Shown piece after piece: positions 14,619 to 38,037 of a DNA stretch of 40,616 nt. Positions within the stretch are counted from its first letter, which is position 1. Each line of letters starts with the position of its first letter. Origin of the DNA: Escherichia phage EC.W1-9. The translations under genes and the position numbers were made by a program. Below the pieces are notes generated by a model. It was not told the origin of the DNA. It searched no databases and saw only the letters and a list, made by a program, of their open reading frames with translations. The stretch lies in the sequence record PP445227.1; one strand, 5' to 3'.

Positions 14619-15224
14619 ATGGCCTCTGTAGTAGAGATCTGCAATCGTGCGCTGTCCAATATTGGCAACAGCCGCAGTATTAACAGCCTGACGGAAGCCA
14701 GCAAGGAAGCGGGGGAATGTTCGCTGCACTTTGAGGCCTGCCGTGATGCTGTGCTTTCTGATTTTGACTGGAACTTTGCTACCAAACGCGTGGCGCTTGC
14801 AGATACGAGCAATCCACCGCCTGACTGGGAATATGCGTACCAGTACCCGTCCGATTGTCTGCGCATTACTGAAATTATGCTTCCTGGTGTACGCAATCCA
14901 ACAGCAGCAATGCGCGTTCAGTACGAAGTTGGTGCAGACACCAACGGAACAGGAAAGTTGATCTACACAGACCAGCCGCAGGCATGGCTCAAGTATGTAT
15001 CTCGCGTTTCAGATGTGAACATGTTTGATGCCATTTTTATGGAGGCGTTGGCCTGGCGTCTTGCGGCAGCCATTAACATGGCGCTGACTGGGAATGCAGA
15101 CCTCGGTACGTTTGCCCTCAATATGTACAATCGCGTGATTCTTAGTGCTGGCTCGCATAGCCAGAATGAATCACAGGAACCACAGCCACCGGTTGACGAG
15201 TTTACCATTGCGAGGTTGTCCTGA
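14619..15224 (+). CDS. Tail tubular protein A-like (T7 gp11-like adaptor)
   Basis: 201 aa (T7 gp11 is 196); N-terminal ICNRALSNIG…SINSL pattern resembles the gp11 N-terminus; immediately precedes an 823-aa gene. Confidence 0.55.
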   Translation: MASVVEICNRALSNIGNSRSINSLTEASKEAGECSLHFEACRDAVLSDFDWNFATKRVALADTSNPPPDWEYAYQYPSDCLRITEIMLPGVRNPTAAMRVQYEVGADTNGTGKLIYTDQPQAWLKYVSRVSDVNMFDAIFMEALAWRLAAAINMALTGNADLGTFALNMYNRVILSAGSHSQNESQEPQPPVDEFTIARLS

Positions 15225-17695
15225 TGGCTATCAGTTGGATCCAGCCCAGCTTTGCCGGTGGTGAGATTGGACCGTCGTTGTACGGACGTATCGACATGGC
15301 GAAGTACCAGGTGGCATTGCGCAAGTGCGATAACTTTATCGTGCGGCAGTATGGCGGCGTTGAGAATCGACCAGGTACGCGTTTTGTCGGTGCCGCAAAA
15401 TACCCAAATCGGAAATGCCGCCTGATCCCGTTCCAGTTCTCGACGGTTCAGACCTATGCTCTGGAGTTCGGACACCAGTACATGCGCGTTATCAAAGATG
15501 GTGCGTTGGTGCTGAACAGCAGCAATGTTATTTATGAAATTGCCACGCCATATACTGAAGCCGATCTGTTCCGAATTAAATTCACGCAAAGCGCCGACGT
15601 GCTTACGCTGGTTCACCCGGCATACCCGCCGAAAGAGTTGCGCCGCTACGCGCATGACAACTGGCAACTGGTTGATGTGGTAACGAAGAACGGGCCATTT
15701 GAAGATATCAATATTGACGAGTCAGTGACGGTTTATGCCAGCGCCAGCACCGGGACAATTACGTTAACGGCAAGCGCCTCTATTTTTGGCGCGGAGCAGG
15801 TAGGCAAATTGTTCTATCTGGAACAGCCTGCAGTGGATTCAGTGCCGGTATGGGAAACCAGTAAGAGTACGTCGATTGGCGATATTCGCCGTGCAGACAG
15901 TAATTACTATCGCGCCGTTACAGCAGGCAAAACAGGCACTTTGCGCCCTTCGCATACAGAAGGCACATCATGGGATGGCTGGGGCGGCTCCGGTGATGAT
16001 GATACTGGCATTGAGTGGGAGTATCTGCACAGTGGTTTTGGCATTGCCCGTATCACTGCTGTAAACGGCACTACTGCAACTGCCGAGGTGATTTCCTATA
16101 TCCCTTCGCAGGTCGTTGGCGAGGATAATGCCAGCTATAAATGGGCTAAATATGCCTGGAACAGTGTTAATGGTTATCCTGGCACTGTTGTTTATTATCA
16201 ACAACGTCTTTACTTCGCCGCATCGACTGCGTTCCCTCAGACTATCTGGGCCAGCCGTACCGGGGATTATAAGGATTTTGGCAAAAGCAATCCTACGCAG
16301 GATGACGACAGAATTATCTACACCTATGCCGGGCGTCAGGTTAATGAGATCCGCCACCTGATTGATGTTGGTTCGCTGGTGGCGCTGACTTCCGGAGGTG
16401 AGTACGTCATCACCGGCGACCAGAACAAAGTGTTAACCCCATCATCATTTGCATTCAGCTCTCAGGGATCAAATGGCTCAAGCAACGTCCCACCAATTGC
16501 TGTGGCGAATATTGCTCTGTTCGTCCAGGAGAAAGGCAGTGTTGTCCGTGATCTGGCCTACTCATTCGATGTTGACGGCTATCAGGGGAACGACCTTACT
16601 ATCCTTGCCAATCATCTTTTTCAGAAGCACAGCATTGTTGACTGGTGCTTCTCTATTGTCCCTTACTCCAGCGCCTTCTGCATTCGTGATGACGGTAAAT
16701 TACTGGTGATGACCTATTTGCGTGATCAACAGGTTTTTGCATGGGCACCACAGTCCAGTACCGGAAAATATGAAAGCACATGCAGTATCAGCGAAGGCAA
16801 TGAAGATGCGGTGTATTTCGTCATTAACCGAACCGTTAACGGGCAAACAGTGAGATACATCGAGCGACTGTCCAGCCGTTTATTTACCAGCGATGAAGAT
16901 GCTTTCTTTGTTGATTCTGGCCTTAGCTATGATGGAAGAAATACGTCTGACAGAACGATGACCATCACTGGTGGTTCTGGTGAATGGGATTACCGTGCGG
17001 AATATACAATCAGTGTTTCTGGTGGTGCGTACTTCACCAGTAGTGATGTCGGCGCGCAACTACAGTTCCCTTATACCGGAACTGATCCTGATACTGGCGA
17101 TGAAGTGTCAAAAGAATTACGTTGCGACATTATTTCTGTAACCAGCAATACCGCAGTAGTGGTTCGTGCTAACAGGAACGTCCCGCCATCCCTCAGGAAT
17201 GTGGCCACCACGAACTGGCAGATGGCGCGCCGGACATTTGGCGGCTTGTCTCATCTTGAAGGCCAGACCGTAAACATCCTCTCTGATGCGAACGTGGAAC
17301 CACAAAAAGTGGTTTCCGGAGGTGCCGTCACGCTGGAATCACCGGGGGCTGTTGTGCACATCGGCCTGCCAATAACTGCTGAATTCGAAACACTGGATAT
17401 CAACATTAACGGACAGGAAACGCTGCTGGACAAAAAACAGGTGATCCCGTCCGTTACTCTGGTTGTGAATGCCAGTCGCGGCATCTGGGCGACTACGCCC
17501 GGCGGTAAATGGTACGAATATCCACAGCGTGAATTCGAGTTCTACGATGATCCTGTTGATGATGCTACCGGAAAAGTAGAAGTGAAGCTGGACAGTAACT
17601 GGGGCAAAAACGGGCGTGTAAAAATCCGTCAGCTTGACCCGTTGCCGCTGTCTGTTCTTGCCGTTATTCCTCGCCTTACTGTTGGGGGATTCTGA
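15224..17695 (+). CDS. Tail tubular protein B-like (T7 gp12-like nozzle)
   Basis: 823 aa, beta-rich, position and size match gp12; start overlaps upstream stop. Confidence 0.55.
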   Translation: MAISWIQPSFAGGEIGPSLYGRIDMAKYQVALRKCDNFIVRQYGGVENRPGTRFVGAAKYPNRKCRLIPFQFSTVQTYALEFGHQYMRVIKDGALVLNSSNVIYEIATPYTEADLFRIKFTQSADVLTLVHPAYPPKELRRYAHDNWQLVDVVTKNGPFEDINIDESVTVYASASTGTITLTASASIFGAEQVGKLFYLEQPAVDSVPVWETSKSTSIGDIRRADSNYYRAVTAGKTGTLRPSHTEGTSWDGWGGSGDDDTGIEWEYLHSGFGIARITAVNGTTATAEVISYIPSQVVGEDNASYKWAKYAWNSVNGYPGTVVYYQQRLYFAASTAFPQTIWASRTGDYKDFGKSNPTQDDDRIIYTYAGRQVNEIRHLIDVGSLVALTSGGEYVITGDQNKVLTPSSFAFSSQGSNGSSNVPPIAVANIALFVQEKGSVVRDLAYSFDVDGYQGNDLTILANHLFQKHSIVDWCFSIVPYSSAFCIRDDGKLLVMTYLRDQQVFAWAPQSSTGKYESTCSISEGNEDAVYFVINRTVNGQTVRYIERLSSRLFTSDEDAFFVDSGLSYDGRNTSDRTMTITGGSGEWDYRAEYTISVSGGAYFTSSDVGAQLQFPYTGTDPDTGDEVSKELRCDIISVTSNTAVVVRANRNVPPSLRNVATTNWQMARRTFGGLSHLEGQTVNILSDANVEPQKVVSGGAVTLESPGAVVHIGLPITAEFETLDININGQETLLDKKQVIPSVTLVVNASRGIWATTPGGKWYEYPQREFEFYDDPVDDATGKVEVKLDSNWGKNGRVKIRQLDPLPLSVLAVIPRLTVGGF

Positions 17696-18159
17696 TGGTC
17701 GATGTTCAAATTATTCCCGCTACCGAAGAGCATCTTCAGATGATTTTGCCGGATGTTCGTCAGGCTGATATTGACGAACTGTATGCGGTATCGCTGATGA
17801 CTACCGAAGATGCGCTGCGTGTTGGTCTGCGCACTGCGACTATGGCCTGGTCAGGATTTGCGAACGGAGAACTGGTAACCATGTTTGGCGTATCTCCGGC
17901 GTCAATGATCGGTGGCAATGGTACGCCCTGGCTGGTAGGAACCAGCCGTATTGAAAAATATCAGAAGACATTTCTGCGCCACTGCCGCCCTGTATTGCAG
18001 CAGATGCTGGCAGTTTATCCGCGCCTGGAAAACTACGTCGACGAGCGAAACCATGTTGCCAAAGCATGGCTGCACTGGCTTGGATTCAGGCTTGAAGAAG
18101 CCGCGCCTTATGGTGCTCTTGGTCTTAATTTCCACAGATTTCACATGGAGAGAAAATAA
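17695..18159 (+). CDS. Virion protein (gp13 position)
   Basis: 154 aa, translationally coupled within the tail/ejection gene block. Confidence 0.4.
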   Translation: MVDVQIIPATEEHLQMILPDVRQADIDELYAVSLMTTEDALRVGLRTATMAWSGFANGELVTMFGVSPASMIGGNGTPWLVGTSRIEKYQKTFLRHCRPVLQQMLAVYPRLENYVDERNHVAKAWLHWLGFRLEEAAPYGALGLNFHRFHMERK

Positions 18160-18734
18160 TGTGCGATCCGGTTATTGCTGGTGGCGCAATGCTCGCCATG
18201 AGTGGCATTCAGGCATACACCCAGTACCAACAGGGAAAGTATGCCTCGAAGGTTGCAGAAGCGAACGCAGATATAGCCACAGCTCAGGCAAATGATGCAA
18301 TAAACAGAGGTAACGCTGAAGCTGAGCAACGACGCAGAGAGACCCGACAGCGGCTTGGTACACAGGCGGCGACAATGGGGGCTACCGGCGCTGATTTATC
18401 TACAGGTAACGCGCTGGATATATTTGGCGACACTGCCCAGTTTGGCGCTCTTGATTCGCTGACGACGGTGAATAACGCGCAACGCGAGGCTTACGGTTAT
18501 CAGGTTCAGGCTGCCAACTATAAAGCAGAAGCCAGTTCAGCCCGTAAACAGGGGAATGTAGGAGCAGCAACAACATTGCTCACTGCGCCTCTGAAGGCAT
18601 ACGGTGCGTACCAGATGTTTGGTGGGACGTGGAGTCCGTTCTCTAAAGGAAGTACATCTAGTGGTGGGACGCCAATGTTATCTAACTCAGGTTTTATGAA
18701 TTCTGACTCCCGATTCAAAATAGGAGGTTACTGA
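18159..18734 (+). CDS. Internal virion/ejection protein (T7 gp14-like position)
   Basis: 191 aa, Ala/Gln-rich low-complexity, start overlaps upstream stop. Confidence 0.45.
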   Translation: MCDPVIAGGAMLAMSGIQAYTQYQQGKYASKVAEANADIATAQANDAINRGNAEAEQRRRETRQRLGTQAATMGATGADLSTGNALDIFGDTAQFGALDSLTTVNNAQREAYGYQVQAANYKAEASSARKQGNVGAATTLLTAPLKAYGAYQMFGGTWSPFSKGSTSSGGTPMLSNSGFMNSDSRFKIGGY

Positions 18735-21481
18735 TGCCTGTTGTTCCTACTACATCCGGACGTCAGGTGCAAAGTCGTGGTGTGCAAACCGGTGGTTTTC
18801 AGATCTTCGATGTTCCTCAAGCAGATCAGGTGCTGGCGAATGTCGCAGATCAGTATGCGGTGGCATATGGTGAAGCCAGGCAGAAAGCGAATGTTGCTAT
18901 GGCCCAGGAGGCGTTACTGCAATTTAACCAATTTGCAGATGACCAGATTAACAACCCTGAAAGTGGGCTGATTTCTAAACAGGGTAAAAACGCTCTTGGT
19001 CAGAGTGACGCTGTTATGAAAAATATGCAGGAAAGGGCTCAGGCATTATTAGGCTCAATTCCTGAAAGTGAGGAAAGGAATAAATTATCCTTTCAACTCC
19101 AGCAGTCTATGCAGTCTTATTACAATCAGGCACGTCGATATGAAGTTGGGCAGTTTCAGCAATTCCAAGATCAAACGTATTTGTCAGGAAATGCATTGGC
19201 TGTCACTCAGTCTGCGGGGCTATATAGCGATAACCAAGCATTTGTCGATTTAGCCAAGCAGCGATTTGAATCTATTGATCAATACGCTGATGCGCATGGG
19301 CTTCCTGATGAGTGGCGTGTTCAGCAGAAAACTCAGCTCAAGGAACAAATGGGGCAGCAAGCATGGATAGGAAATATCGCTCAAAAATACAACGAGTTTC
19401 TTCAGGTTAATGGAGAGCCAGGGGATCTTGATGGTGTGAGTCGTGCAATATCACATGGTAATTCATTGGATGCTCGTGGTTTACGTAATAATAACCCTGG
19501 TAATATTGAAGCGAGCAAATCTAACCCGTGGGAAGGTCAGATCGGTAGCGATGGACGTTTTGCAACGTTTGCTACCCCTGAGCATGGAATCCGCGCGTTG
19601 GGTAAAAATATGTTGTCTTACCAGCGTCAAGGCTATGACACCGTTAGCGAGATTGTTAATCGCTATGCTCCGGCTAGTGATGGTAATAATACTGATGCTT
19701 ATATTAGGGCATTGTGTGGTGAGCTTGGTGTTGGGGAGAATGATCAGCTTGATATCTCTAACCCAAAGACACTAGCTGCTTTATGTGCTGGGATTATTAA
19801 ACACGAAAATGGCAGTATGCCTTATAGCACCGAACAGCTTGAAACTGGTATCTCGGCAGCCCTTGGTCTAACTAACCTTGATTCACCTAAGCGTTATACA
19901 GGCAATGCGGCATTTGATGCTATGAGCCCTCAAATGCAAATACAGGCATTGAGGCAGGCTAATGAGCTGAGAAATCAGTACCGCCAGCAGTATGCGGACC
20001 AGCTTAGCACCGTAGTTAAAGATGCATATTCAGCCCTTGATGAAGGATTGAAACCTGAGAAGTTACCTTCTGAGGACGATTTTATCCGGGCCAATGGTCC
20101 GCGCATTGGCGCTATGAAGTGGAAGGATATGCAGGCGCAGATACAATATGGAGGTGTCATTGGTGCCGCTAAAGACCTCACTCCAGAAGGACGACAAGAC
20201 ATTCTTGAACGTTTACGTCCACAGGATCCAAACGCTCCTGGATTTGCAGCTAACCAGCAACGCTGGGAGAAAATGCAGGCCAAATTTAAAGAGATGGATA
20301 GGGAGTGGGAGATTCAGCAGGGAAGAAACAGGTTCGTGTCTTCAATGCAAAATAACTTCCCGCTGGACCCGAACGACAAAAACAATCAGGCAGCGGTAGA
20401 CCGTTATTTCGCGCAGGATATCGCGCCTTCGTTTTCCATATCTGATCCGCAGAGCATCAATACACTGGTCACCGTCACAACTAAAAGCGGCATGATACCA
20501 ACTCAGGTTAAAACAATGCTTAACAGTGGAGCAACATCAAGAGATCCTGCGCTGGTTGTCCCGATGGCAAAATTCTACGGTCAGTTATTCGATAATAATC
20601 CGGCGGCAGCGGCAACACTTGATAAAAGTACGATGGCATTTTACGGCAAGGTTTACGATTATTCCCGCGCTGGCGTGCCGGAGGATAAGGCTGTTGATAT
20701 GGCTTACAGCCAGGTGTTCCAACAGGATGACCGAATGAAACAGATGCTTTCCACTGCCATGCGAGACAAAAAATATGTCGCGGCGAGGGCAACTGCTGCA
20801 CAAAATAACGCCAGCAGTCTGACTTCCTTTGGTTCGTGGTCTCCGGATATTACCGATCCAGGAAAATCAAATGCGGCCTATCAGCGAGATTACCAGACAA
20901 TTTACGATGCTAACTTTGTACAGACAGGTGGCGATGCAGAACAGGCTGAGAAAATGACCAATGCCATGATCAGAACCACCTGGGGAGTTTCTACGGTTAA
21001 TGGCAAAGCAGAGGTTATGAAGTATGCACCTGAGGCATTGTACGGAGTAAATAATGGTGCTGGTAACTGGATACAGGGGCAGTGGGAGCAGGAAAAACGC
21101 GAGCTTAAATCAAAATCCTTTGGCGGTCCTCGCAGTGATACGGACTTAATACTTGTTTCTGATGGCCTTACGGCAAGGGATAGGAGTTATGCTGTTATGG
21201 TTTTACAGCCTGACGCAAACGGAGCGATAGAACCGAGAAATTATATTGGAGAAAATGGTCTCCCTGTTCGTTTCAAGCCGGATCAGCTGACATCTCCAAT
21301 GTACAGGCAAACCATTAAGTTCCAGCAACAGCGTGTTGATGAGGCTAGAGTGCGGAGAGAAGGCAATCCGCTGCCGCAGTTCAGCAATAAAGATGGATAT
21401 ACTCCTCCAGATCTGACCAAACCATTCGGTTATGGTTCAGCCAATTACCTTCCGAGCAATATATACGCAGGGGGCAAATAA
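18734..21481 (+). CDS. Internal core/ejection protein (T7 gp15-like position)
   Basis: 915 aa, coupled starts; contains a conserved-looking block ARGLRNNNPGNIEASKSNPWEGQ…GIRALGKNMLSYQRQGYDTVSEIVNRYAP that may be a cell-wall-directed domain. Confidence 0.5.
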   Translation: MPVVPTTSGRQVQSRGVQTGGFQIFDVPQADQVLANVADQYAVAYGEARQKANVAMAQEALLQFNQFADDQINNPESGLISKQGKNALGQSDAVMKNMQERAQALLGSIPESEERNKLSFQLQQSMQSYYNQARRYEVGQFQQFQDQTYLSGNALAVTQSAGLYSDNQAFVDLAKQRFESIDQYADAHGLPDEWRVQQKTQLKEQMGQQAWIGNIAQKYNEFLQVNGEPGDLDGVSRAISHGNSLDARGLRNNNPGNIEASKSNPWEGQIGSDGRFATFATPEHGIRALGKNMLSYQRQGYDTVSEIVNRYAPASDGNNTDAYIRALCGELGVGENDQLDISNPKTLAALCAGIIKHENGSMPYSTEQLETGISAALGLTNLDSPKRYTGNAAFDAMSPQMQIQALRQANELRNQYRQQYADQLSTVVKDAYSALDEGLKPEKLPSEDDFIRANGPRIGAMKWKDMQAQIQYGGVIGAAKDLTPEGRQDILERLRPQDPNAPGFAANQQRWEKMQAKFKEMDREWEIQQGRNRFVSSMQNNFPLDPNDKNNQAAVDRYFAQDIAPSFSISDPQSINTLVTVTTKSGMIPTQVKTMLNSGATSRDPALVVPMAKFYGQLFDNNPAAAATLDKSTMAFYGKVYDYSRAGVPEDKAVDMAYSQVFQQDDRMKQMLSTAMRDKKYVAARATAAQNNASSLTSFGSWSPDITDPGKSNAAYQRDYQTIYDANFVQTGGDAEQAEKMTNAMIRTTWGVSTVNGKAEVMKYAPEALYGVNNGAGNWIQGQWEQEKRELKSKSFGGPRSDTDLILVSDGLTARDRSYAVMVLQPDANGAIEPRNYIGENGLPVRFKPDQLTSPMYRQTIKFQQQRVDEARVRREGNPLPQFSNKDGYTPPDLTKPFGYGSANYLPSNIYAGGK

Positions 21482-24400
21482 TGCCGATATATGAACAGGA
21501 TCCTAAAGAGTTGCTTGGCGAGGATATTCAGCAAATAGCAGCACCTGATGACAGTAATTTCTATATGGAAACACCTTCTTTGCTTTCTGCTGTGAACCCA
21601 TTTACCAGTGATCAACGCGTTCAAAGGTCTAGACAAGCAGCATTTCGTATAGATAACACGCTGGGTAGCTTTATTGCCAGTGCTCCTTTCAGTCAGTTTG
21701 ACAGGGTTGAAGGATATAACCCATTTGATAACGATGCAGCAGATATTAAAGGCTATGAAGATTTTGCAGATTCGTTTATCAACTCCGGTTCGCATGAAGA
21801 AACAATGGCAATTAAACATCGAATCGATCAGCAGAGAGCTGACATGGAATACAATTCAGGCTTGGGATTTGCTGGTACAGTCTCTTCTGTAGCAATGAGA
21901 TTAGCAGATCCATTCAATGCGATTTCTATGTTTATTCCGTTCGGCGCTGTCGTTCGTGGCGGTCGTATTGCAGAAACAGCCGGACGTTTTGCTTTAGCCA
22001 ATGCTGCTGGCAGTGTTGCTTCAGAGGCCGCATTGCAGGCCACTCAGGAAGCTCGCTCACCGATGGAGAGCGTATCGAACGTTGTTGTTGATGCTCTCGT
22101 TGGTGGGATCCTTGGTGCTGGTGCACAGCTACTTGCTGGACCTAGCGCGCGCGAGGCAGTGGTTAACTCAGTAGGTAATCATTTGCGAGGTATGGATTCT
22201 CCTCAAAGCATTGGTGCAGCTCAGGTTTTCAATACCACACTCGATCAGGAACAGCTTGCTGGACTTGGACTTGCTAACAAAACGTTGAGTGTCACTCCTG
22301 CTGGCCGCTTGGCGCAATCACCATCTCTTGTTTCCCGTCAGATTAACCAGCAGCTTGCCGAAAATAACTATTTCTTCGCCAAAAATGATGAGGGGTTGGC
22401 TACGTTTACGGCAGTCGAGACTAAGATTAAGCAATACGACGCCATGCTTTATAAGCAGATGGAAGCTACTCGTGATGCTTACCAGCAGTACAGCAAATCT
22501 GTCAGCGCCCGCGGCGTGAAGAGGATGAACTTTATTGATTTCAATGAAGCTGTTGGCATGGCTATGCGCCGTGGTGATCAGAGTGATATTCCTGAGGTTT
22601 CACAAGCAGCCGCCAGAATCCGCCCCATTTTTGAGACCACAAAAGCCCGTATGCAGGAATTGGGGATCCTTCCTGAGGATATCGATGTCGTGACGGCGAA
22701 GAGTTATCTTCCCCGCATTTATAAGTTCGATAAGATACTTTCCGACCGCACTGAATTCAGAGGGCGAATTGCCAACTGGATACAAGGGATTAGTGCCAAA
22801 GGTGCTGACAAAGCAGGTCAGCGAATTGAAAAGATAAATTCATTGCTAAAAACTGCAGAGGAATCAGCACCGCGCGCTGATGCTCTCGCTAGTGAAATCG
22901 CTGAAGCGGAGAAATGGTCTGGTAAAAAAATTCTACTCATGGAAGAACTGGATAAACGAAATAAGCTTATATCTCAGGAGACTGACACACAGGCGCGTCT
23001 TACAAGAATAGAAAAAGAGTTGGCCGAGACTTCATCAGAAAAACTTCAGGCAAGAATGATGAAAGAAAGCTCTGACCTTAAAACACGCCTTGATGATATA
23101 GCGCAGGCAAAGAGTGAGCTTCCTGTCTATCAGCGCCATATGGAGTTGCTGGATAATCCACGGAAATATCGTTCTGAGCTTCGCCGACTGCAAAAACGGG
23201 CAAATTCAACCACAAGGCTGAATGCAAGCCGCGAGCGAGCACTGAAGCAGATGGAGCCTCTATCCCGAGAGGAAGCAGAGGACGCTGCTGACGAGATCGT
23301 GAATAAAATAATAGGCGCACCTTCCGGGCTTGTACCAGCCGATATTATCCCAGAGAGACTCGTTGGTCGGGCTGGTTTCACTAAAAGCCGAACGCTGCTT
23401 ATTCCTGATGAGCGTATAGAAGATTTTCTTGAATCAGATGTTAACTACATCATGGAAAGTTATCTCCGGCAGGTGGCACCAGAAATTGAGCTGACTGCGC
23501 AGTTTGGCCGTAAAGATATGGGGGAGCAAATCCGTCAGGTTAGTGAGGAATATACCCGGCTAATAAAAGAGGCTAAAACACCTAAACGACGTGCAGCTCT
23601 TGAGAAGCAACGGGAGGCTGATATTAGGGATATTACGGCTATGCGTGACCGACTGCTTGGTACTTACGGCGCACCTCAAGATCCACGCAGTTTCTTTGTT
23701 CGTGCCGGGCGAGTTGCTAGGAATATTAACTTCCTCCGTTTGCTTGGTGGAATGACCGTCTCCGCTGCAACTGATCTGATGCGACCGATGATGCAGCATG
23801 GCCTGAGAAAATCTCTCGGACCAATGGTAAGCATGCTTAAAAATATGGACTCAGTGAAAATTGCAACCAGGGATTTGCGAGAAATGGCAGTTGGGCTTGA
23901 TTATGTCCTGTCTACGCGCACAAAGGCTATAGCGGATCTTACTGACCCCTATAGCCGGAGAAGCGCCGCTGAGCGAGGTCTGAACTGGATGACGCAGAAA
24001 TTCGGTAACTGGACGCTGATGAATCAGTGGAACAGCGCACTTAAATCATGGTCTGGGATGATAGTGCAGTCGAGGATACTTGACGCGGCTCGCCAAGTTT
24101 CTGCTGGTGGCACGCTCTCCAAAAGTGAAATGCGGAAGATGGCACAGGTCGGCATCAATGAAGATGTTCTGCGCCGAATCGGGGAGCAATTCGGGAAGCA
24201 CGGAGAGGATATGGACGGGCTGTTAACCGGGCATAGTCATCTGTGGGATGACCGTTTCGCTAGAGAGATTTTCCAGTCTGCAGTGCTGAAAGATGTAGAC
24301 TCAGTGATTGTAACGCCTGGCGTAGGTGATACACCGCTGTTTTTTAGTAAAGAAGGCTGGAAGATGATCACGCAGTTCAAAACGTTTATCTTCGCACAGC

Positions 24401-24870
24401 ATAACAGGGTGCTAGTATCTGGTATCCAGCAGGGCGATGCTGCATTCTATCTTGGTGCGCTTGGCACGATTGCGCTTGGCTCAATGGTCTATATGATGAA
24501 ACAGAAGTTAAGCGGTCGCGATATCGACTACAGCTGGAATAACCTTGTGAAAGAGGGGATCGACCGGGGCGGAATGCTTGGCTGGCTCTCTGAGCCGCTG
24601 AATACCGTTGAGAACATAAGCGGCGGTAGGTTTGGTCTTGGCGCGATGTTTGGTGCGCCTCCGGTATCAAGGTTTCAGAGTCGTAATGCTATTGGTGCTT
24701 TACTTGGTCCTACCTTTGATCTTGGCGGTGATGCCGCGACGGTTGCAAATGGTGTACTTAACGGAGAATTTGACAGCCAGCAAACCCACGCTGTCCGTAA
24801 AATGCTACCTTTTCAGAATCTGTGGGCGATATCACCATTACTAAATAAAGTTGAAGAGCAGATGAAATAG
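21481..24870 (+). CDS. Large internal core/ejection protein (T7 gp16-like position)
   Basis: 1129 aa, last gene of the ejection block, long coiled-coil centre. Confidence 0.5.
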   Translation: MPIYEQDPKELLGEDIQQIAAPDDSNFYMETPSLLSAVNPFTSDQRVQRSRQAAFRIDNTLGSFIASAPFSQFDRVEGYNPFDNDAADIKGYEDFADSFINSGSHEETMAIKHRIDQQRADMEYNSGLGFAGTVSSVAMRLADPFNAISMFIPFGAVVRGGRIAETAGRFALANAAGSVASEAALQATQEARSPMESVSNVVVDALVGGILGAGAQLLAGPSAREAVVNSVGNHLRGMDSPQSIGAAQVFNTTLDQEQLAGLGLANKTLSVTPAGRLAQSPSLVSRQINQQLAENNYFFAKNDEGLATFTAVETKIKQYDAMLYKQMEATRDAYQQYSKSVSARGVKRMNFIDFNEAVGMAMRRGDQSDIPEVSQAAARIRPIFETTKARMQELGILPEDIDVVTAKSYLPRIYKFDKILSDRTEFRGRIANWIQGISAKGADKAGQRIEKINSLLKTAEESAPRADALASEIAEAEKWSGKKILLMEELDKRNKLISQETDTQARLTRIEKELAETSSEKLQARMMKESSDLKTRLDDIAQAKSELPVYQRHMELLDNPRKYRSELRRLQKRANSTTRLNASRERALKQMEPLSREEAEDAADEIVNKIIGAPSGLVPADIIPERLVGRAGFTKSRTLLIPDERIEDFLESDVNYIMESYLRQVAPEIELTAQFGRKDMGEQIRQVSEEYTRLIKEAKTPKRRAALEKQREADIRDITAMRDRLLGTYGAPQDPRSFFVRAGRVARNINFLRLLGGMTVSAATDLMRPMMQHGLRKSLGPMVSMLKNMDSVKIATRDLREMAVGLDYVLSTRTKAIADLTDPYSRRSAAERGLNWMTQKFGNWTLMNQWNSALKSWSGMIVQSRILDAARQVSAGGTLSKSEMRKMAQVGINEDVLRRIGEQFGKHGEDMDGLLTGHSHLWDDRFAREIFQSAVLKDVDSVIVTPGVGDTPLFFSKEGWKMITQFKTFIFAQHNRVLVSGIQQGDAAFYLGALGTIALGSMVYMMKQKLSGRDIDYSWNNLVKEGIDRGGMLGWLSEPLNTVENISGGRFGLGAMFGAPPVSRFQSRNAIGALLGPTFDLGGDAATVANGVLNGEFDSQQTHAVRKMLPFQNLWAISPLLNKVEEQMK

Positions 24871-24871
24871 G

Positions 24872-25723
24872 ATGAAAAAAATAAATTTGTTTTTTGGCAT
24901 AGTGCTTTCAATAGTCTCTGTAAATCCTACAGCTGCCAGTTCATTGCAATGCAATAAGGATAACTTTGATGCATGCAAAACGTGCGAACAATTATCAAAG
25001 GCTATCGACTTAAAAGAACCTAATCGTGGCGATTACTATAGAGGGGCTTTATGGAATGGGCTTTACGCCTCTTATGTAATTAATTGCCCTGTGGTTGCAG
25101 AGAAGTTACTGAGCCATGGTGCTATACCATCATATGGCGGATATATGGGGTCTATGGGGGCGGTTCTGACAGGAAAATGGCCTCATAACAATGAATCAAT
25201 AAATCTTTCATGGGCAGATTTGCTTATAAAACATGGATTTGATGTTAATAGGCATACGGGGAATTATAAATCAGCTACTGAAGTATGGGCTATAGATAAA
25301 AAACAGATTGAATATAAGTCAGTTTTTGACAAGTTAATTCAATCCAGCGAAGTAAAACCACTCGATCCTTCAAGAAATTTAGAATGGTGTGCGTCTGAAG
25401 GGTATCGCTCAGTTGTCGTTTATTCCCTTAACTCATGTATAGAAAATGCTATAAAACGTTTGGATGACGGTGTTTCTTCAGCGTCTGATATTTCATCAGC
25501 AGCCGTAAATTCCTGTACTAGCGATGTAGAAAATTTCAATAAGCATTTGGCATGCAAAGCAGCTGTTAAAGAAAACTCTGATAAAGAGAGAAGCAACGTT
25601 TACCAGTTATTAACCAGTGATAGTCAAATGAATAAAAATGTTATTGATATGCTGAAGGAAAGAAATATTGAAACGGTTCTTGAATTTAGAGCTGAAAATC
25701 GATCAGCGAAAACTGCACAGTGA
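24872..25723 (+). CDS. Secreted cysteine-rich accessory protein
   Basis: N-terminal signal peptide (MKKINLFFGIVLSIVSVNPTAAS), many Cys, visibly AT-rich; followed by a terminator hairpin. Confidence 0.55.
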   Translation: MKKINLFFGIVLSIVSVNPTAASSLQCNKDNFDACKTCEQLSKAIDLKEPNRGDYYRGALWNGLYASYVINCPVVAEKLLSHGAIPSYGGYMGSMGAVLTGKWPHNNESINLSWADLLIKHGFDVNRHTGNYKSATEVWAIDKKQIEYKSVFDKLIQSSEVKPLDPSRNLEWCASEGYRSVVVYSLNSCIENAIKRLDDGVSSASDISSAAVNSCTSDVENFNKHLACKAAVKENSDKERSNVYQLLTSDSQMNKNVIDMLKERNIETVLEFRAENRSAKTAQ

Positions 25724-26930: not shown

Positions 26931-27623
26931 TCAGAAGAACCCTGCTTTGTCGTTGATGTACTCCGCGTGCGTCTGGATATCACGCAGGCATTTGCTCACA
27001 CCGACGATGTAGCAGAACATGGTGGTCAACTCCGCCGCCGCGCCCGATACGTCGTGCCCGTCTTCCTGTAACTGGTTTAGCAGATTCATCAGCAGTGAGT
27101 TCTCCGTCAGGCCGAGAACACCAGACGGCGAATGAATCAGGCTGCGGTAGCCGGGCTTCAGTGGGGCGCTGTAGGTTTTGTTCTCTACCTTCATTGCCTG
27201 CATCACTGCTGATGCTGTGGCGTTGGCTACCTGGTCGGCAACCATCTTTATGCGTTCTTCCTGCGGGAGCGAGTTTTTAATGTAACTTCCGGTGCGGCGG
27301 ATCTGAGGAAGAACCTCACCTGTAACCCATTCAAGAAATCTGAATGCTCTCGTTCCCTCAGTCATTGCCTCTTTGCAACGCAGAATAAGGATGTAGAGAC
27401 CTGATTCTGAAACGATGGATAGTTCTTGTATTCCACCAGGGGTCTGTATTGAATACAGCCCCTTTTTGTTCCAGCCTTTTTTATCAAGTTTTCTCGCTTG
27501 TGTAACATCAATATTCAAAGCATTGCACACATCTTTGGTGACAAACCAAGGTTCTCCGTCAATCATGAACATACGGATCTGGCAGGATGACTCAAAGGAA
27601 AAGATGGAAGGTTTGGTATTCAT
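26931..27623 (-). CDS. Antirepressor (Bro-N / KilA-N-type N-terminal domain)
   Basis: N-terminus FSFESSCQIRMFMIDGEPWFVTKDVCNALNI…GLYSIQTPGGIQELSIVSESGLYILI matches the Bro-N antirepressor fold pattern; ATG at 27623 after AAAGGTGA. Confidence 0.7.
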   Translation of the reverse strand: MNTKPSIFSFESSCQIRMFMIDGEPWFVTKDVCNALNIDVTQARKLDKKGWNKKGLYSIQTPGGIQELSIVSESGLYILILRCKEAMTEGTRAFRFLEWVTGEVLPQIRRTGSYIKNSLPQEERIKMVADQVANATASAVMQAMKVENKTYSAPLKPGYRSLIHSPSGVLGLTENSLLMNLLNQLQEDGHDVSGAAAELTTMFCYIVGVSKCLRDIQTHAEYINDKAGFF

Positions 27624-27889
27624 AGCGATCACCTTTGTAGTTAGGTTAATCACCACCGCTGAGACCAATCAGATGGTGGTGAACTGTGCAGAGTTGGTCT
27701 TACCGGCTACAAAGGAACCCGGCGCACCTTTCGGTGCCCCCACACAGCCCACCATAGAATAGGTGCGCTTTACACATAAAAAAACCGCTTATGCGGCATA
27801 TGTGCCTCTGTAGTAATCCGGGAGACCAATCCCGGCACTGGATTTTGCCAGTGCCCGATTACTATGGCACAAGAGGAGTGCAATGTAAA

Positions 27890-31963: not shown

Positions 31964-32185
31964 CTGCTACCGCGCCATTTGATGGTGCGGAATTCAACTA
32001 ATCCTCTATATTTTGAATCATTTCTGTACTGCAATCTCTTCAGAGTTATGTAAAAGGCAAGCCTTATTATCGACATGAAAGGAAGGGGATTGACAATGCA
32101 TGGGTAACAAAAAACCATAAATGGTTTATCATGCGTAATGCCTTTACTATTCAGGAGGTAGTTATGCATATAAACGGTGGAAAAC

Positions 32186-32590
32186 ATGTCAGCTCAACTA
32201 ACCAGTGAAACTTTAAATCAGTGGCTTAGCATGAGTTCTCTGGCGGCGGTGATAGCAGGAGTTCCTCCTGAGGTTGCTTTGGGGGCTTTGGCTGGGGCGG
32301 TAATTTTTGTTACCTCTGCGGTAGAGTATCCTATTCGTCGTCGTGTACTCTTGTCGATGCTTAGCTTTCTCTGCGGCCTTCTTTTTTATAAACCAGCAGC
32401 ATCAATTCTTATCGGCATAGCCAGCCTGATCCCTACCATCACGCAGGACTCTTTTGAAAAAGGGATTGTTTTCTCAGCTGGCGCATTCGTGTCAGCAATT
32501 GTTGCTGTGCGTATTGGTATATGGCTCTATCACCGTTCCGATAATCCACGCGAGTTAATTCCGGGGAGAAAAGACGATGGTAACGCATGA
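32186..32590 (+). CDS. Holin-like membrane protein
   Basis: Three hydrophobic helices, charged C-terminus, first gene of the lysis cassette; ATG at 32186 after GGTGGA. Confidence 0.55.
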   Translation: MSAQLTSETLNQWLSMSSLAAVIAGVPPEVALGALAGAVIFVTSAVEYPIRRRVLLSMLSFLCGLLFYKPAASILIGIASLIPTITQDSFEKGIVFSAGAFVSAIVAVRIGIWLYHRSDNPRELIPGRKDDGNA

Positions 32591-32885
32591 GTTTTTTTTG
32601 CTTATCACCAATGCAGTTATTTGTACTGGCATAGCAATTCGCGTTGTCACATTCCGGCGTAACGGCTCTCAACATCGAAGATGGGGAGGGTGGCTTGCTT
32701 ATTTCCTTATTGTTGCTGCGGCCAGTATTCCTGTTCGTGTCGTCTATGCAATCTGGTTACGCACGCCAATGGCTGTGGATTTATCTGAGGTCATTATCAA
32801 CGCTGTCATGCTTGCCGCGGTTATTAAAACACGCGGTAACGTTGTTCAGATTTTCAAAATATCGAGGTCTAAACATGGAGATTAA
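32577..32885 (+). CDS. Holin/antiholin-like membrane protein
   Basis: 102 aa, three hydrophobic segments, GGGGAGAA SD, overlaps both neighbours. Confidence 0.55.
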
Positions 32886-33504
32886 ACAATTCCAGCGAGC
32901 TGCTGGTATTAGCGAGTCGCTGGCCGCACGCTGGTTCTCGCATATAACTTCTGCGATGAAAGAGTTTGGTATCAGCAAAGCAGAAGATCAGGCAATGTTT
33001 ATTGCTCAGGTCGGGCATGAGTCTGGGGGCTTCACCCGGTTGCAGGAGAATTTCAACTACAGCGTCAGCGGACTGGCTAACTTTGTTCGGGCTGGGCGTC
33101 TCACTCAGGGACAGGCCAACGCATTGGGGCGACGCGCAGGCGAACCACCATTGCCACTTGAGCGCCAGAGAGCGATTGCCAATCTGGTGTACAGCAAACG
33201 CATGGGGAACAATGCCCCCGGCGATGGCTGGAATTACCGTGGCCGCGGACTTATCCAGATTACCGGTTTGAATAACTATCGTGATTGCGGAAACGGCCTG
33301 AAAGTGGACCTGCTGGAGAATCCTGAACTGTTGGCGCAGGACGAATACGCGGCTCGTAGCGCGGCGTGGTTCTTCTCCAGCAAAGGTTGCATGAAGTATA
33401 CCGGCGATATTGCACGTGTAACTCTGATTATCAATGGTGGCAGGAATGGCATCGACGACCGGCGCGCGCGGTACGTCACTGCCAGTAAGGTGCTGGCTGT
33501 ATGA
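32875..33504 (+). CDS. Endolysin, glycoside hydrolase family 19-like
   Basis: [10 protein letters not shown]…[12 protein letters not shown] pattern typical of GH19 phage endolysins; ATG at 32875 chosen over the upstream track start. Confidence 0.7.
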
Positions 33505-33983
33505 TCTGGTCATTCGTAAAAGCATACCGTAAACAGTTGATTATCATGGCGGTGCTTGCTGTTCTGGTCATATCAGGAGTTGTTGCCTGGAATGTGCACG
33601 GCAGTCGTCAGTACGACGCTGGGTATGCACAGGCGAAAGAAGACCGCAAAACAGAAGATGAGAGAGTTCGTCAGCACTACGAACAGGAGAAATCGATCAA
33701 TGAACGTGAAGCGCAGCAGAGGATCGACCAGGCGCGCAATGATGCTCTTGATGCTGCCGCTCGCGCTGGCCGGTTGCAGCAACAGCTCGTTGCCATCCGT
33801 GAGCAGCTCAGGCACTATAACGCCATTGTCGGCGCTGGGTCGTCAGCCGCAGACACCGGAGTTTTGCTTGCCGACGTGTTCAGCAAATCTCTCGAGAGAA
33901 ATAGACAACTGGCAGAGTATGCTGACCGGGCAGCCGAAGCCGGAAGAGTCTGCGAAAAACAGTACGACACCCTGACCAGATAG
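33501..33983 (+). CDS. i-spanin (Rz-like)
   Basis: N-terminal TM helix then Gln/Arg/Glu-rich coiled coil; ATGA overlap with the endolysin stop. Confidence 0.7.
33739..33975 (+). CDS. o-spanin (Rz1-like lipoprotein) embedded in the +1 frame of the i-spanin gene
   Basis: [17 protein letters not shown]… lipobox LAGC, Pro-rich mature part, wholly nested in the Rz-like gene. Confidence 0.65.
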   Translation: MMLLMLPLALAGCSNSSLPSVSSSGTITPLSALGRQPQTPEFCLPTCSANLSREIDNWQSMLTGQPKPEESAKNSTTP

Positions 33984-34155
33984 CATGGCATTTTTCATGG
34001 TACTGATTTCCGGTGACGGTATATAAAACGGTACGAGAAAAATTCATATTTGGAAAAATGTTATCACTCAATTGGTTATGGTATCCGTAAATAATTGAGT
34101 GGGAATGATTAACAGCTAACTCATAGCAAATCATTCCTATTCAGATGCCAACTCA

Positions 34156-34187
34156 ACCCTCTGTTTTTGCAGAGGGTTTTTGTTTTT
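34156..34187 (+). terminator. Rho-independent terminator after the lysis genes
   Basis: ACCCTCTG-tttttg-CAGAGGGT followed by TTTTTGTTTTT. Confidence 0.65.
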
Positions 34188-34243
34188 ATGTATTCATTTC
34201 TATTCACTCTACACCATATTTTTCGGCGGTACAGGTGACGGTA

Positions 34244-34258
34244 TTACCTTAAAGGTAT
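34244..34258. promoter_or_regulatory. Palindromic site TTACC-N5-GGTAt (imperfect)
   Basis: ATTACCttaaaGGTATA upstream of the integrase. Confidence 0.4.
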
Positions 34259-34300
34259 ACTCTCATACCGTCATGAAAATGGTTTCTATACGGGTGAATT

Positions 34301-37095: not shown

Positions 37096-38037
37096 TTACA
37101 TAGATGTTTCGTTTAATTCTTCCCGACGAACGCTGTAAACGTCGGTGGCTTTTGCCAGCAGTTCGTCATCATCTGAAAGTTTTTGTGCAATGTATTTGTA
37201 AGCCTTATCCAGTTCGGAGACAGTGCTGTAATTCATCGCTGCGCTGGTAAAGGCCATCAGCATTTCTTCTGGATCACGGCTGTCCGATTTACGCGTTTGC
37301 TCATCAGGCTTTTTCGCTGGTTTAGCGTTGATCAGACTGTTCATTCCCGCAGCAGTGGTCGTTTGCGGAGTAATGTCTCGCTCAACGCGCGGTGCCGTTT
37401 CCTGTAATTCGTCTGGGGTGTAGACGCCCATGATTACGTCAGGACAGTGCAGGCGAGACCAGCGTTTTGTCGCAAGGTATGCGAGTTGTTGTTTCGGATC
37501 ACTGGCCCAAAGTGTGGAGTTTCTTACCTGTGCTTGAGACAGCATTAACTCAAGCACTCGAGGTTGATCCTCGCCCTTCATGGTTGCCCATACGCGAACA
37601 CCGCAGCCTTCTTCGTCTTTTAGAGTCCAGCCTGGTGCGATATATGGATTGCCGTTTTTGGATGTTTTCTCAACAAACTTACCGATCACGCGTTCCCACG
37701 GCCCGAACCACTCGTAGTTGATGCGATCTTTTGTTGGCGACATCGTTGAGATAACTGCGTTTACTAATTGGGCTTCATAACCTAGCGTGCCGTTCACAAC
37801 ATGGGTTTTCTGAGCCACGGCAAACGGGTTCATTCCCCACTGCGCAGCCTGCATTGCCACGGCCATGCAATCAGCTGGTTTCCCGGCGAGGTGCGCCGGT
37901 ACCGTTACGCGGCTTTGCGCCATTACCTCGGCGAATTTCATCAGTTGGTTCAAGCCGTCTGGGCTGAAAATAGTTGCAGCAGTTCCAGCGATTGCTGTGT
38001 CTACTGGTGCGTTGATGTTTGCGATGTCGTTGCTCAT
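37096..38037 (-). CDS. recT: RecT-family single-strand annealing protein
   Basis: RecT-like length and sequence pattern; ATG at 38037 overlaps the upstream exonuclease stop (ATGA). Confidence 0.7.
   Translation of the reverse strand: MSNDIANINAPVDTAIAGTAATIFSPDGLNQLMKFAEVMAQSRVTVPAHLAGKPADCMAVAMQAAQWGMNPFAVAQKTHVVNGTLGYEAQLVNAVISTMSPTKDRINYEWFGPWERVIGKFVEKTSKNGNPYIAPGWTLKDEEGCGVRVWATMKGEDQPRVLELMLSQAQVRNSTLWASDPKQQLAYLATKRWSRLHCPDVIMGVYTPDELQETAPRVERDITPQTTTAAGMNSLINAKPAKKPDEQTRKSDSRDPEEMLMAFTSAAMNYSTVSELDKAYKYIAQKLSDDDELLAKATDVYSVRREELNETSM

What the first reader, a model, noticed from the sequence alone, without database searches (positions are those of the whole stretch)
18734..21481. gp15-position ejection protein carries a conserved-looking NNPGN-containing block that may be a cell-wall-directed domain
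Residues around 235-330 (…ARGLRNNNPGNIEASKSNPWEGQIGSDGRFATFATPEHGIRALGKNMLSYQRQGYDTVSEIVNRYAPASDGNN…) look like a compact globular domain inside an otherwise low-complexity internal core protein. In T7 the lytic transglycosylase sits on gp16, not gp15, so this would be a relocated or novel peptidoglycan-active module. I do not recognise the family.
Basis: inference. Interest (0 to 1): 0.35.

Follow-up and report, generated by a model that had tools for sequence, protein, structure and literature searches.

The report
Cell-wall-cutting domain in phage ejection protein
The block is a real enzyme domain of a known but poorly catalogued family (Enc34-type peptidoglycan hydrolase) inside the "gp15-position" DNA-ejection protein of an epsilon15-like temperate phage, where it most likely cuts the cell wall during infection; related phages are already annotated this way, so it is ordinary.

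Summary

The protein is full-length PHROG 1044 ("endolysin"). Its N-terminal half, domain included, is homologous to epsilon15 gp15 ("putative lytic transglycosylase"). The downstream gp16 homologue lacks the T7 transglycosylase domain. The window has its own holin / GH19 endolysin / spanin-like cassette. In phage TL-2011b the collinear protein carries an SLT domain at the same site, so the site holds an exchangeable lytic module.

Verdict: a virion-borne entry hydrolase, and a new member of a known kind. The rest of the protein is helical, not low-complexity. Lytic domains on gp15-position proteins are already documented (SP6, K1E, K1-5).

The parts
18734..21481 (+). 915-aa internal virion / ejection protein in the gp15 position. 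Full-length member of PHROG 1044.
   Evidence: ORF. phrog_1044 matches residues 1-903 at E=0. Start overlaps the upstream stop (TGATG at 18732-18736), with AGGAGG at 18722-18727.
18833..19411 (+). N-terminal helical region (residues ~34-226). Residues 1-45 are poorly predicted.
   Evidence: AF2 full-length model: helices H34-73, H90-107, H113-163, H167-188, H192-226. Residues 1-60 are ~90% identical to TL-2011b gp37.
19412..19471 (+). Linker (residues 227-246) before the enzyme domain.
   Evidence: pLDDT <50 at residues 241-246. Relatives of 1013-1074 aa carry about 100 extra residues at this point.
19472..19933 (+). Enc34-type (PHA02564) glycoside-hydrolase domain, residues 247-400. The structured core is ~247-377.
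19484..19504 (+). RNNNPGN motif (R251-N257), the family's N-terminal signature.
   Evidence: N254, G256 and N257 are invariant and R251, N252, N253 and P255 are >=90% conserved in 71 domain homologues. N252-N257 are invariant in 45 full-length homologues. Codons checked.
19664..19666 (+). Tyr311, aligned with Enc34 Trp79 (aromatic residue in the substrate groove).
   Evidence: Alignment (chain numbering is native +1). Role of Trp79 from PMC8943055. The family consensus at this position is W, in the motif INRWAP.
19700..19702 (+). Tyr323, aligned with Enc34 Tyr95.
   Evidence: Alignment. Invariant in A1 (Y89) and in A2 (Y323).
19805..19807 (+). Glu358 (GAA), aligned with the proposed catalytic Glu131 of Enc34.
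   Evidence: Alignment. Invariant in A1 (E124) and in A2 (E358). Codon checked.
19928..21364 (+). C-terminal helical plus small beta region (residues ~399-877), the presumed tunnel/core scaffold.
   Evidence: AF2 secondary structure. Collinear with TL-2011b gp37, up to 55% identity at residues 721-780. After Enc34, the next three Foldseek hits are entries of the T7 gp15-gp16 core/tunnel complex (7k5c_A E 2.3e-4, 7eyb_A, 6yt5_A).
18159..18734 (+). gp14-like internal virion protein (191 aa).
   Evidence: Pfam PF24072 T7_gp14 E 4.4e-8. phrog_418 E 1e-72.
17695..18159 (+). gp13-position internal virion protein (154 aa).
   Evidence: phrog_308 'internal virion protein' E 1e-62. Weak match to Phage_T7_Gp13, E 0.088, below the Pfam cut-off.
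21481..24870 (+). gp16 homologue (1129 aa) without an N-terminal lytic domain.
   Evidence: phrog_342 E 1.6e-232, starting at profile position 192. T7 gp16 covers positions 4-1227 of the same profile, and its residues 5-139 hit transglycosylase PHROGs that this protein does not hit. No SLT or lysozyme Pfam hit. TAATG overlap at 21479-21483.
32177..33983 (+). Separate lysis cassette: two holin-family genes (32177-32590, 32577-32885), a GH19-type endolysin (probable start 32875, end 33504) and a DUF2514 protein, which I read as spanin-like (33501-33983).
   Evidence: Pfam Phage_holin_8, Phage_holin_3_7, Glyco_hydro_19 and DUF2514. Internal ATG at 32875. Shows that the ejection-protein domain is not the phage's lysis endolysin.

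Best explanation
The 915-aa protein is the gp15-position internal virion (ejection) protein of an epsilon15/TL-2011b-like temperate podophage. An Enc34-type (PHA02564) lysozyme-superfamily glycoside-hydrolase domain (residues ~247-377) is set between an N-terminal helical region and a C-terminal helical scaffold. A poorly predicted linker precedes it. The proposed mechanism is as follows. The protein is packaged in the capsid core with the gp14-like and gp16-like proteins. At infection it is ejected through the tail into the periplasm. There the domain locally hydrolyses glycan strands of the peptidoglycan, using Glu358 as the catalytic acid and Tyr323 and Tyr311 to position the substrate. The bond cut is probably the GlcNAc-MurNAc bond, by analogy with M4Lys and Enc34. 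The helical parts, together with the gp16 homologue, would then assemble the trans-envelope DNA conduit. In this lineage the wall-cutting function sits on the gp15-position protein, and the gp16 homologue has no lytic domain. Shown here: domain identity, fold, conservation of the catalytic residues, gene context, absence of a lytic domain on gp16, and a separate lysis cassette. Inferred: enzymatic activity, bond specificity, presence in the virion, ejection, and tunnel formation.
For: Catalytic residues: E358 and Y323 are invariant in 71 domain homologues and in 45 full-length homologues. Enc34 Glu131/Tyr95/Trp79 are the proposed catalytic signature, and the Enc34 domain is muralytic in turbidity assays (PMC8943055). 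The homologous M4Lys domain degrades purified peptidoglycan, with GlcNAc release seen by MS (PMC7143992).
Virion/entry role: the gene lies in a run of adjacent or overlapping genes from tail to gp16-like (tail / gp13-like / gp14-like / this ORF / gp16-like); the TGATG and TAATG overlaps either side of this ORF were read directly. The same domain forms the N-terminus of Kayfunavirus gp16 ('internal virion protein D', 'DNA ejectosome component'). The epsilon15 gp15 homologue is annotated 'putative lytic transglycosylase'.
Same-site swap: TL-2011b gp37 is collinear with this protein (BLASTP E 5e-104) but has Pfam SLT at residues 263-342, where this protein has the Enc34-type domain.
Other context: the gp16 homologue lacks the lytic domain. 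A separate holin / GH19 endolysin / DUF2514 cassette is present. The domain is the best-conserved part versus epsilon15 gp15, at 60-80% identity against 20-38% in the flanking N-terminal half.
Against: Bond specificity in this family is unsettled: M4Lys data suggested both glucosaminidase and endopeptidase activity, and no sugar-bound Enc34 structure exists. Trp79 is Tyr here, which is conservative but not identical. Sequence-level homology of the non-enzymatic parts to T7 gp15 is not demonstrable. There is no PF26212 hit, hhalign gives E 0.21 and BLASTP gives only E 0.002 over 70 residues. The Foldseek hits to T7 gp15 have low TM-scores (0.15-0.19). The tunnel-forming role therefore rests mainly on gene order.
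Confidence: 0.85

Rival explanations
1. The domain is a catalytically inactive descendant of a hydrolase. It would serve only as a peptidoglycan-binding or structural anchor for the ejection tunnel.
For: Many homologues carry uncurated names such as 'structural protein P5', 'virion protein' or 'capsid and scaffold protein'. Trp79 of Enc34 is Tyr here. No activity was measured.
Against: The proposed catalytic Glu and the Tyr are invariant across 71 domain and 45 full-length homologues. The domain is the most conserved segment of the protein. The site is occupied by a canonical SLT domain with an intact E-S / GKYQLMP / AYNWG-type motif in TL-2011b, which argues that the site is selected for cleavage. 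No other virion-module protein scanned carries a lytic domain.
Confidence: 0.07
2. The protein is the phage's endolysin, or an auxiliary lysin acting from within at the end of the lytic cycle, as the PHROG label 'endolysin / lysis' suggests.
For: phrog_1044 is labelled 'endolysin' in category 'lysis'. RefSeq annotates TL-2011b gp37 as 'endolysin'. The characterised family members Enc34 ORF39 and M4Lys are true endolysins.
Against: The window has a complete separate lysis cassette: two holin-family genes, a GH19 endolysin and DUF2514. The gene sits between gp14-like and gp16-like internal virion genes and overlaps both. The protein is 915 aa and mostly helical scaffold, and it lacks the C-terminal transmembrane domain that characterises the Enc34/M4Lys endolysins (PMC8943055).
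Confidence: 0.03
3. The block is a new, previously undescribed cell-wall-active family that has uniquely moved to gp15.
For: No Pfam-A or NCBIfam model matches it. The nearest full-length relative found is only 88% identical.
Against: A solved structure (7Q47) and biochemistry exist for the family. About 19,000 cluster representatives carry the domain. Epsilon15 gp15, phiV10, SPN1S and Tyrion share this N-terminal half including the domain. Lytic domains on gp15-position proteins are documented (PMC8954989; SP6).
Confidence: 0.02

Closest known systems
Hafnia phage Enc34 ORF39 endolysin catalytic domain (PDB 7Q47; CDD PHA02564 'V virion protein' family) and Salmonella phage BSPM4 M4Lys
   Different: Those proteins are ~200-aa lysis-cassette endolysins with a C-terminal transmembrane domain. 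Here the domain is inserted in the middle of a 915-aa virion ejection protein with no such domain, and the phage has another (GH19) endolysin. Trp79 is Tyr.
Salmonella phage epsilon15 gp15 (842 aa, 'putative lytic transglycosylase'; PHROG 992) and its phiV10, SPN1S and Tyrion homologues
   Same: Same gene position after the gp14-like gene. Residues 1-516 are homologous at 44% identity, and the Enc34-type domain is at the same place at 60-80% identity.
   Different: The C-terminal half (after ~516) is unrelated at the sequence level. Epsilon15 has two further large genes (gp16, gp17), whereas this window has one gp16 homologue of PHROG 342.
Escherichia phage TL-2011b gp37 (905 aa; PHROG 1044)
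   Same: Collinear full-length homologue (E 5e-104), with a near-identical first 60 residues and the same neighbours. Its gp16 homologue also starts at about profile position 200 of PHROG 342.
   Different: It carries a Pfam SLT (GH23 lytic transglycosylase) domain at residues 263-342 in place of the Enc34-type domain. This is a same-site module exchange.
Kayfunavirus (K1F, SH3) gp16 'internal virion protein D', which is the likely source type of PDB 9VVP Gp29
   Same: The same Enc34-type domain (46-48% identity, E 5e-35) is used as the lytic module of an ejection protein.
   Different: There it is the N-terminus of the gp16 homologue, the position of the SLT domain in T7, and not an internal insertion in the gp15-position protein.
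T7 gp15 / gp16 ejectosome (PDB 7K5C), and SP6 and K1E/K1-5 gp15-like proteins
   Same: Gene order gp14-gp15-gp16. One ejection protein carries a peptidoglycan-cleaving module. The SP6 gp15-position protein also carries the lytic domain (Phage_lysozyme at residues 770-905), and K1E/K1-5 are reported likewise (PMC8954989).
   Different: T7 has the module (SLT) on gp16-N. SP6 uses a GH24 lysozyme near the C-terminus. Sequence homology of this protein to T7 gp15 is not demonstrable. Only Foldseek gives weak support.

Membership tests
Enc34-type / PHA02564 glycoside-hydrolase domain | Significant sequence similarity to the Enc34 ORF39 catalytic domain | tested here: met
   phmmer 7q47_A E 3.7e-15 over residues 247-362. 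tblastn hits to BSPM4 and Chi-like phage endolysins.
Enc34-type / PHA02564 glycoside-hydrolase domain | Distinctive mainly helical fold superposable on 7Q47 | tested here: met
Enc34-type / PHA02564 glycoside-hydrolase domain | Catalytic Glu (Enc34 Glu131) | tested here: met
   Glu358 aligns with it. Invariant in A1 and A2.
Enc34-type / PHA02564 glycoside-hydrolase domain | Conserved Tyr95 and an aromatic residue at Trp79 | tested here: met
   Tyr323 is invariant. Tyr311 replaces Trp, so the aromatic character is retained.
Enc34-type / PHA02564 glycoside-hydrolase domain | Peptidoglycan-degrading activity | not testable with these tools
   Shown only for Enc34 ORF39deltaC and M4LysdeltaTMD (PMC8943055, PMC7143992).
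epsilon15 gp15 / TL-2011b gp37 ejection-protein family (PHROG 1044 / 992) | Full-length profile match and the same gene neighbourhood | tested here: met
   phrog_1044 matches residues 1-903 to profile positions 1-900 of 900, E=0. phrog_992 matches residues 1-523 at E 2.5e-106. Neighbours are phrog_418 (gp14-like) and phrog_342 (gp16), the same order as in TL-2011b and epsilon15.
T7 gp15 (Pfam PF26212, PHROG 1339; periplasmic tunnel protein) | Position between the gp14 and gp16 homologues | tested here: met
   PF24072 T7_gp14 upstream. phrog_342, the family of T7 gp16, downstream.
T7 gp15 (Pfam PF26212, PHROG 1339; periplasmic tunnel protein) | Sequence or profile match to the gp15 family | tested here: not met
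   No Pfam hit at E<=0.1. T7 gp15 belongs to phrog_1339, which this protein does not hit. hhalign E 0.074 and 0.21. BLASTP best E 0.002 over 70 residues.
T7 gp15 (Pfam PF26212, PHROG 1339; periplasmic tunnel protein) | Fold similarity to solved gp15 | tested here: inconclusive
   Foldseek: 7k5c_A E 2.3e-4 (prob 1.00), 7eyb_A E 2.2e-3, 6yt5_A E 5.7e-3, but TM only 0.11-0.19. That these chains are gp15 is inferred from their modelled lengths (642-650 residues).
SLT / GH23 lytic transglycosylase (T7 gp16-N type) | Match to Pfam SLT (PF01464) with the E-S ... GLMQ ... AYNxG motifs | tested here: not met
Canonical lysis-cassette endolysin | Encoded next to holin and spanin genes, as a small soluble or SAR/TMD enzyme | tested here: not met
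   The lysis cassette lies at 32177-33983 with its own GH19 enzyme. This gene is in the virion module, about 11 kb upstream.

The most novel reading that the evidence does not exclude
The slot at residues ~230-400 of this ejection-protein scaffold may be a true exchange cassette. It would accept mechanistically different wall-cutting modules: an Enc34-type hydrolase, probably an N-acetylglucosaminidase, here and in epsilon15, and an SLT lytic transglycosylase in TL-2011b. The choice of module could adapt the phage to host-specific peptidoglycan chemistry or growth state. It would also mean that in this lineage the tunnel-forming protein itself opens the wall, rather than gp16, which implies a different order of events during ejection than in T7.
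Probability: 0.2. Interest if true: 0.4.

Novelty: new member of a known kind. Interest (0 to 1): 0.15.

Why it matters
The practical value is mainly in annotation. A domain family with about 19,000 clusters at 50% identity, a crystal structure and two biochemically tested members still has no Pfam or NCBIfam model. As a result, large virion proteins in many Enterobacterales prophages remain 'hypothetical' or are mislabelled 'endolysin', 'head protein' or 'structural protein P5'. Biologically, this locus adds a clean example of a wider pattern: podophage ejection proteins carry an interchangeable wall-cutting module whose type (SLT, GH24, Enc34-type) and carrier (gp15- or gp16-position protein) vary between lineages. 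The domain could also be mined as a Gram-negative-directed enzybiotic. None of this changes current understanding.

Tried and rejected
1. Pfam-A and NCBIfam scans of the ORF returned nothing. This is a library gap, not evidence of novelty.
2. I first guessed that 7Q47 was Pae87 (Muramidase, PF11860). Reading PMC8972805 showed that Pae87 is 7Q4S/7Q4T and belongs to another family, so I dropped that idea. 7Q47 is Enc34 ORF39.
3. No paper mentions 9VVP. I inferred its identity from tblastn: 99% identity to an E. coli Kayfunavirus-like 'DNA ejectosome component' and 95.6% to SH3 gp16, which is also 1295 aa.
4. I tried to prove homology to T7 gp15 by BLASTP, profile-sequence hhalign and profile-profile hhalign. 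None was significant, and only Foldseek gave weak support.
5. I tested whether the 821-834-aa and 1013-1074-aa relatives lack the domain. All those examined retain it; they differ in the C-terminal half or have a ~100-aa insertion upstream of the domain.
6. I tested whether the SP6 gp15-position lysozyme is the same domain. It is not; it is Pfam Phage_lysozyme.
7. The Guichard 2013 and Chang 2010 epsilon15 papers are not held in the library. Virion presence of epsilon15 gp15 therefore rests on secondary citations and on my own recollection of that literature.
Full report
OBSERVATION. The window holds an ATG-started ORF at 18734-21481 (+) encoding 915 aa. The start overlaps the stop of the upstream gene (TGATG at 18732-18736), with AGGAGG seven bases upstream. 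The stop overlaps the start of the next gene (TAATG at 21479-21483). The genes at 15224-17695, 17695-18159, 18159-18734, 18734-21481, 21481-24870 and 24872-25723 are adjacent or share their boundary base.

WHAT THE BLOCK IS. Pfam-A and NCBIfam give no hit for the ORF. PHROGs places the whole protein in phrog_1044 (residues 1-903 against profile 1-900/900, E=0, labelled 'endolysin'). It also matches residues ~243-395 to segments of several large virion-protein families: phrog_873, phrog_2276 'tape measure' and phrog_7182 'tail injection transglycosylase'.

A sequence search of PDB chains finds two matches:
- 9vvp_L 'Gp29' (1295 aa), chain residues 3-150 against ORF residues 247-399, E 5.2e-35.
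- 7q47_A 'Endolysin', ORF residues 247-362, E 3.7e-15.

7Q47 is the catalytic domain of the Hafnia phage Enc34 ORF39 endolysin, of CDD family PHA02564. That domain is muralytic and has an all-helical fold resembling the alpha-lobe of lysozyme. Its proposed catalytic signature is Glu131, Tyr95 and Trp79, shared with GH73/GH23 enzymes (PMC8943055). The related M4Lys 'virion protein domain' degrades purified peptidoglycan, and mass spectrometry indicated N-acetylglucosaminidase activity and possibly endopeptidase activity (PMC7143992).

In the alignment the chain numbering is native +1. The three Enc34 residues correspond to Glu358 (IIKHENGS), Tyr323 (TDAYIRAL) and Tyr311 (NRYAP) of the ORF; the codons were verified. 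In an alignment of 71 domain homologues, G249, N254, G256, N257, W266, G268, G285, R287, A312, P313, T320, Y323 and E358 are invariant. In 45 full-length homologues, N252-N257, Y323 and E358 are invariant.

HOW COMMON IT IS. A profile of the domain finds 19,027 representatives of 50%-identity clusters at E<=1e-3, and 13,550 at E<=1e-10. The architectures vary:
- stand-alone proteins of ~140-230 aa, often labelled 'structural protein P5' or 'virion protein';
- N-terminal placement in larger proteins;
- C-terminal placement in 700-900-aa proteins;
- internal placement at ~230-500 in 550-1270-aa proteins, as here.
Among isolated phages, tblastn finds the domain in about 750-800 records. These include Kayfunavirus gp16, D3112/DMS3-like 'V' proteins, Chi-like phage endolysins, Bp-AMP1, NO16/autolykivirus-like phages and some Microviridae.

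THE CARRIER PROTEIN AND ITS CONTEXT. Upstream lie a phrog_376 tail protein (823 aa), a phrog_308 internal virion protein, and a gp14-like protein (Pfam T7_gp14, E 4.4e-8; phrog_418).

Downstream lies a 1129-aa protein matching phrog_342 at E 1.6e-232. This is the family that contains T7 gp16. The match begins only at profile position 192. T7 gp16 covers profile positions 4-1227, and its residues 5-139 hit transglycosylase PHROGs that the window protein does not hit. The gp16 homologue therefore lacks a lytic domain.

The ORF occupies the gp15 position, but sequence homology to T7 gp15 is not demonstrable:
- T7 gp15 belongs to phrog_1339 and Pfam PF26212, neither of which is hit.
- BLASTP gives only E 0.002 over 70 residues.
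- hhalign gives E 0.074 and 0.21.
The full-length AF2 model (pLDDT 77.2) is mostly long helices, with low-confidence stretches at residues 1-45, 241-246 and 877-915. After Enc34, its next three Foldseek hits are entries of the T7 gp15-gp16 core/tunnel complex (7k5c_A E 2.3e-4, prob 1.00; 7eyb_A E 2.2e-3; 6yt5_A E 5.7e-3), but the TM-scores are only 0.11-0.19. This is weak structural support for remote gp15 homology. The published view is that gp15-like proteins are matched mostly by size and synteny (PMC8954989). The protein is not low-complexity (entropy 3.2-3.9 bits per 30 aa).

RELATIVES.
- Full-length homologues at 35-88% identity are abundant in Enterobacterales genomes, which I read as prophages, including Klebsiella, Serratia, Salmonella, E. 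coli, Yersinia, Providencia and Proteus.
- Two Klebsiella phages, Kp4865-1 and ST512-KPC3phi13.3, are ~81% identical at the protein level over the full length.
- Epsilon15 gp15 (842 aa, annotated 'putative lytic transglycosylase; HHpred SltB') shares residues 1-516 (44% identity). So do the phiV10, SPN1S and Tyrion homologues. The domain is 60-80% identical to epsilon15 gp15, against 20-38% in the flanking N-terminal half.
- TL-2011b gp37 (905 aa) is also a full-length phrog_1044 member and is collinear with the window protein (BLASTP E 5e-104). It has a Pfam SLT domain at residues 263-342, exactly where the window protein has the Enc34-type domain. The alignment across that stretch is meaningless, while the flanks align. 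Its gp16 homologue also starts at profile position ~203. This is a same-site exchange between two different wall-cutting modules.
- In Kayfunavirus SH3 the Enc34-type domain is instead the N-terminus of gp16 (1295 aa, phrog_342 positions 51-1229). That is the likely identity of 9VVP Gp29.
- In SP6 the gp15-position protein carries a Phage_lysozyme domain at residues 770-905, which is unrelated in sequence to this domain.
- A review already notes lysozyme activity on K1E/K1-5 gp15-like proteins and calls domain swapping across ejection proteins thematic (PMC8954989).

NOT THE LYSIS ENZYME. The window encodes its own lysis cassette:
- Phage_holin_8 (32177-32590)
- Phage_holin_3_7 (32577-32885)
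- a Glyco_hydro_19 endolysin (probable start 32875, end 33504)
- a DUF2514 protein, which I read as spanin-like (33501-33983)
An integrase follows at 34301-35551. The phage is therefore temperate, and the 915-aa protein is not needed as the endolysin.

MECHANISM (shown versus inferred). Shown: domain family, fold, conserved catalytic residues, insertion after a low-confidence linker, virion-module context, no lytic domain on gp16, and a separate lysis cassette. Inferred from T7 and epsilon15 biology and from Enc34/M4Lys biochemistry: the protein is packaged in the capsid core and ejected after the gp14-like protein; its domain hydrolyses glycan strands locally, probably at the GlcNAc-MurNAc bond; the helical parts and the gp16 homologue build the DNA conduit. 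My confidence in this explanation is 0.85.
The rivals are unlikely:
- Inactive binding module (0.07): the invariant Glu and Tyr, and the SLT replacement at the same site, argue against it.
- True or auxiliary endolysin (0.03): the gene context and the separate lysis cassette argue against it.
- Novel family uniquely relocated to gp15 (0.02): already refuted.

NOVELTY AND VERDICT. The claim of novelty is not. The family is structurally and biochemically characterised. The same architecture exists in epsilon15 and its relatives and is annotated as lytic. Lytic modules on gp15-position proteins are documented. This is a new member of a known kind. The only mildly interesting points are the same-site SLT / Enc34-type module exchange and the database gap. 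Interest 0.15.

Noticed in passing
L001 8981-11698 (TL-2011b gp37) versus window 19412-19933: A collinear homologue in the same PHROG carries a Pfam SLT domain at residues 263-342, exactly where the window protein has the Enc34-type domain. This is a same-site exchange between two different peptidoglycan-cleaving modules.
   Followed up: partly
window 21481-24870: The gp16 homologue (phrog_342) starts at profile position 192, so it lacks the N-terminal lytic transglycosylase domain of T7 gp16. TL-2011b gp38 is the same. It also has a marginal Pfam hit to baculovirus DUF919 at residues 530-575 (E 5e-5), which I think is probably a spurious helical match.
   Followed up: partly
whole domain family: A family with about 19,000 clusters at 50% identity, a crystal structure (7Q47) and two biochemically tested members has no Pfam-A or NCBIfam model in the copies searched. 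Homologues carry inconsistent names: 'structural protein P5', 'virion protein', 'capsid and scaffold protein', 'head protein', 'endolysin' and 'peptidoglycan transglycosylase'.
   Followed up: yes
proteins P0199, P0203, P0221, P0226 (1015-1074 aa; also P0206, 1013 aa, by length only) and P0216, P0227, P0240 (821-834 aa): Mosaic variants of the scaffold. The long forms have about 100 extra residues between the N-terminal region and the enzyme domain, with no Pfam hit in the two scanned (P0199, P0221). The short forms share residues 1-~500/540, domain included, but have an unrelated C-terminal half.
   Followed up: partly
window 32177-35551: Lysis cassette with two holin-family genes, a GH19 endolysin (probable start 32875) and a DUF2514 protein, followed by a tyrosine integrase (34301-35551). 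The window is a temperate phage or prophage. RecT (37096-38064), a Bro-N protein (26931-27668) and replication O/P-like genes (180-1777) are also present.
   Followed up: partly
window 29459-31333: A 624-aa protein with a pectate-lyase-like beta-helix domain (PF12708, E 1e-11). I read it as a probable tailspike or depolymerase that determines host specificity.
   Followed up: no
proteins P0002 and P0188: Two close homologues (77% identity over the domain, 57% over the full length) are labelled Clostridium perfringens in NCBI/UniRef. All other relatives are Enterobacterales, so this is likely assembly contamination or mislabelling.
   Followed up: no
hits H41, H43, H44, H91: The same hydrolase domain occurs in some Microviridae genomes ('P5-like structural protein', 'similar to VP3') and in small tailless vibriophages (NO16-like, autolykivirus-like). 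The module therefore crosses very different virus realms.
   Followed up: no
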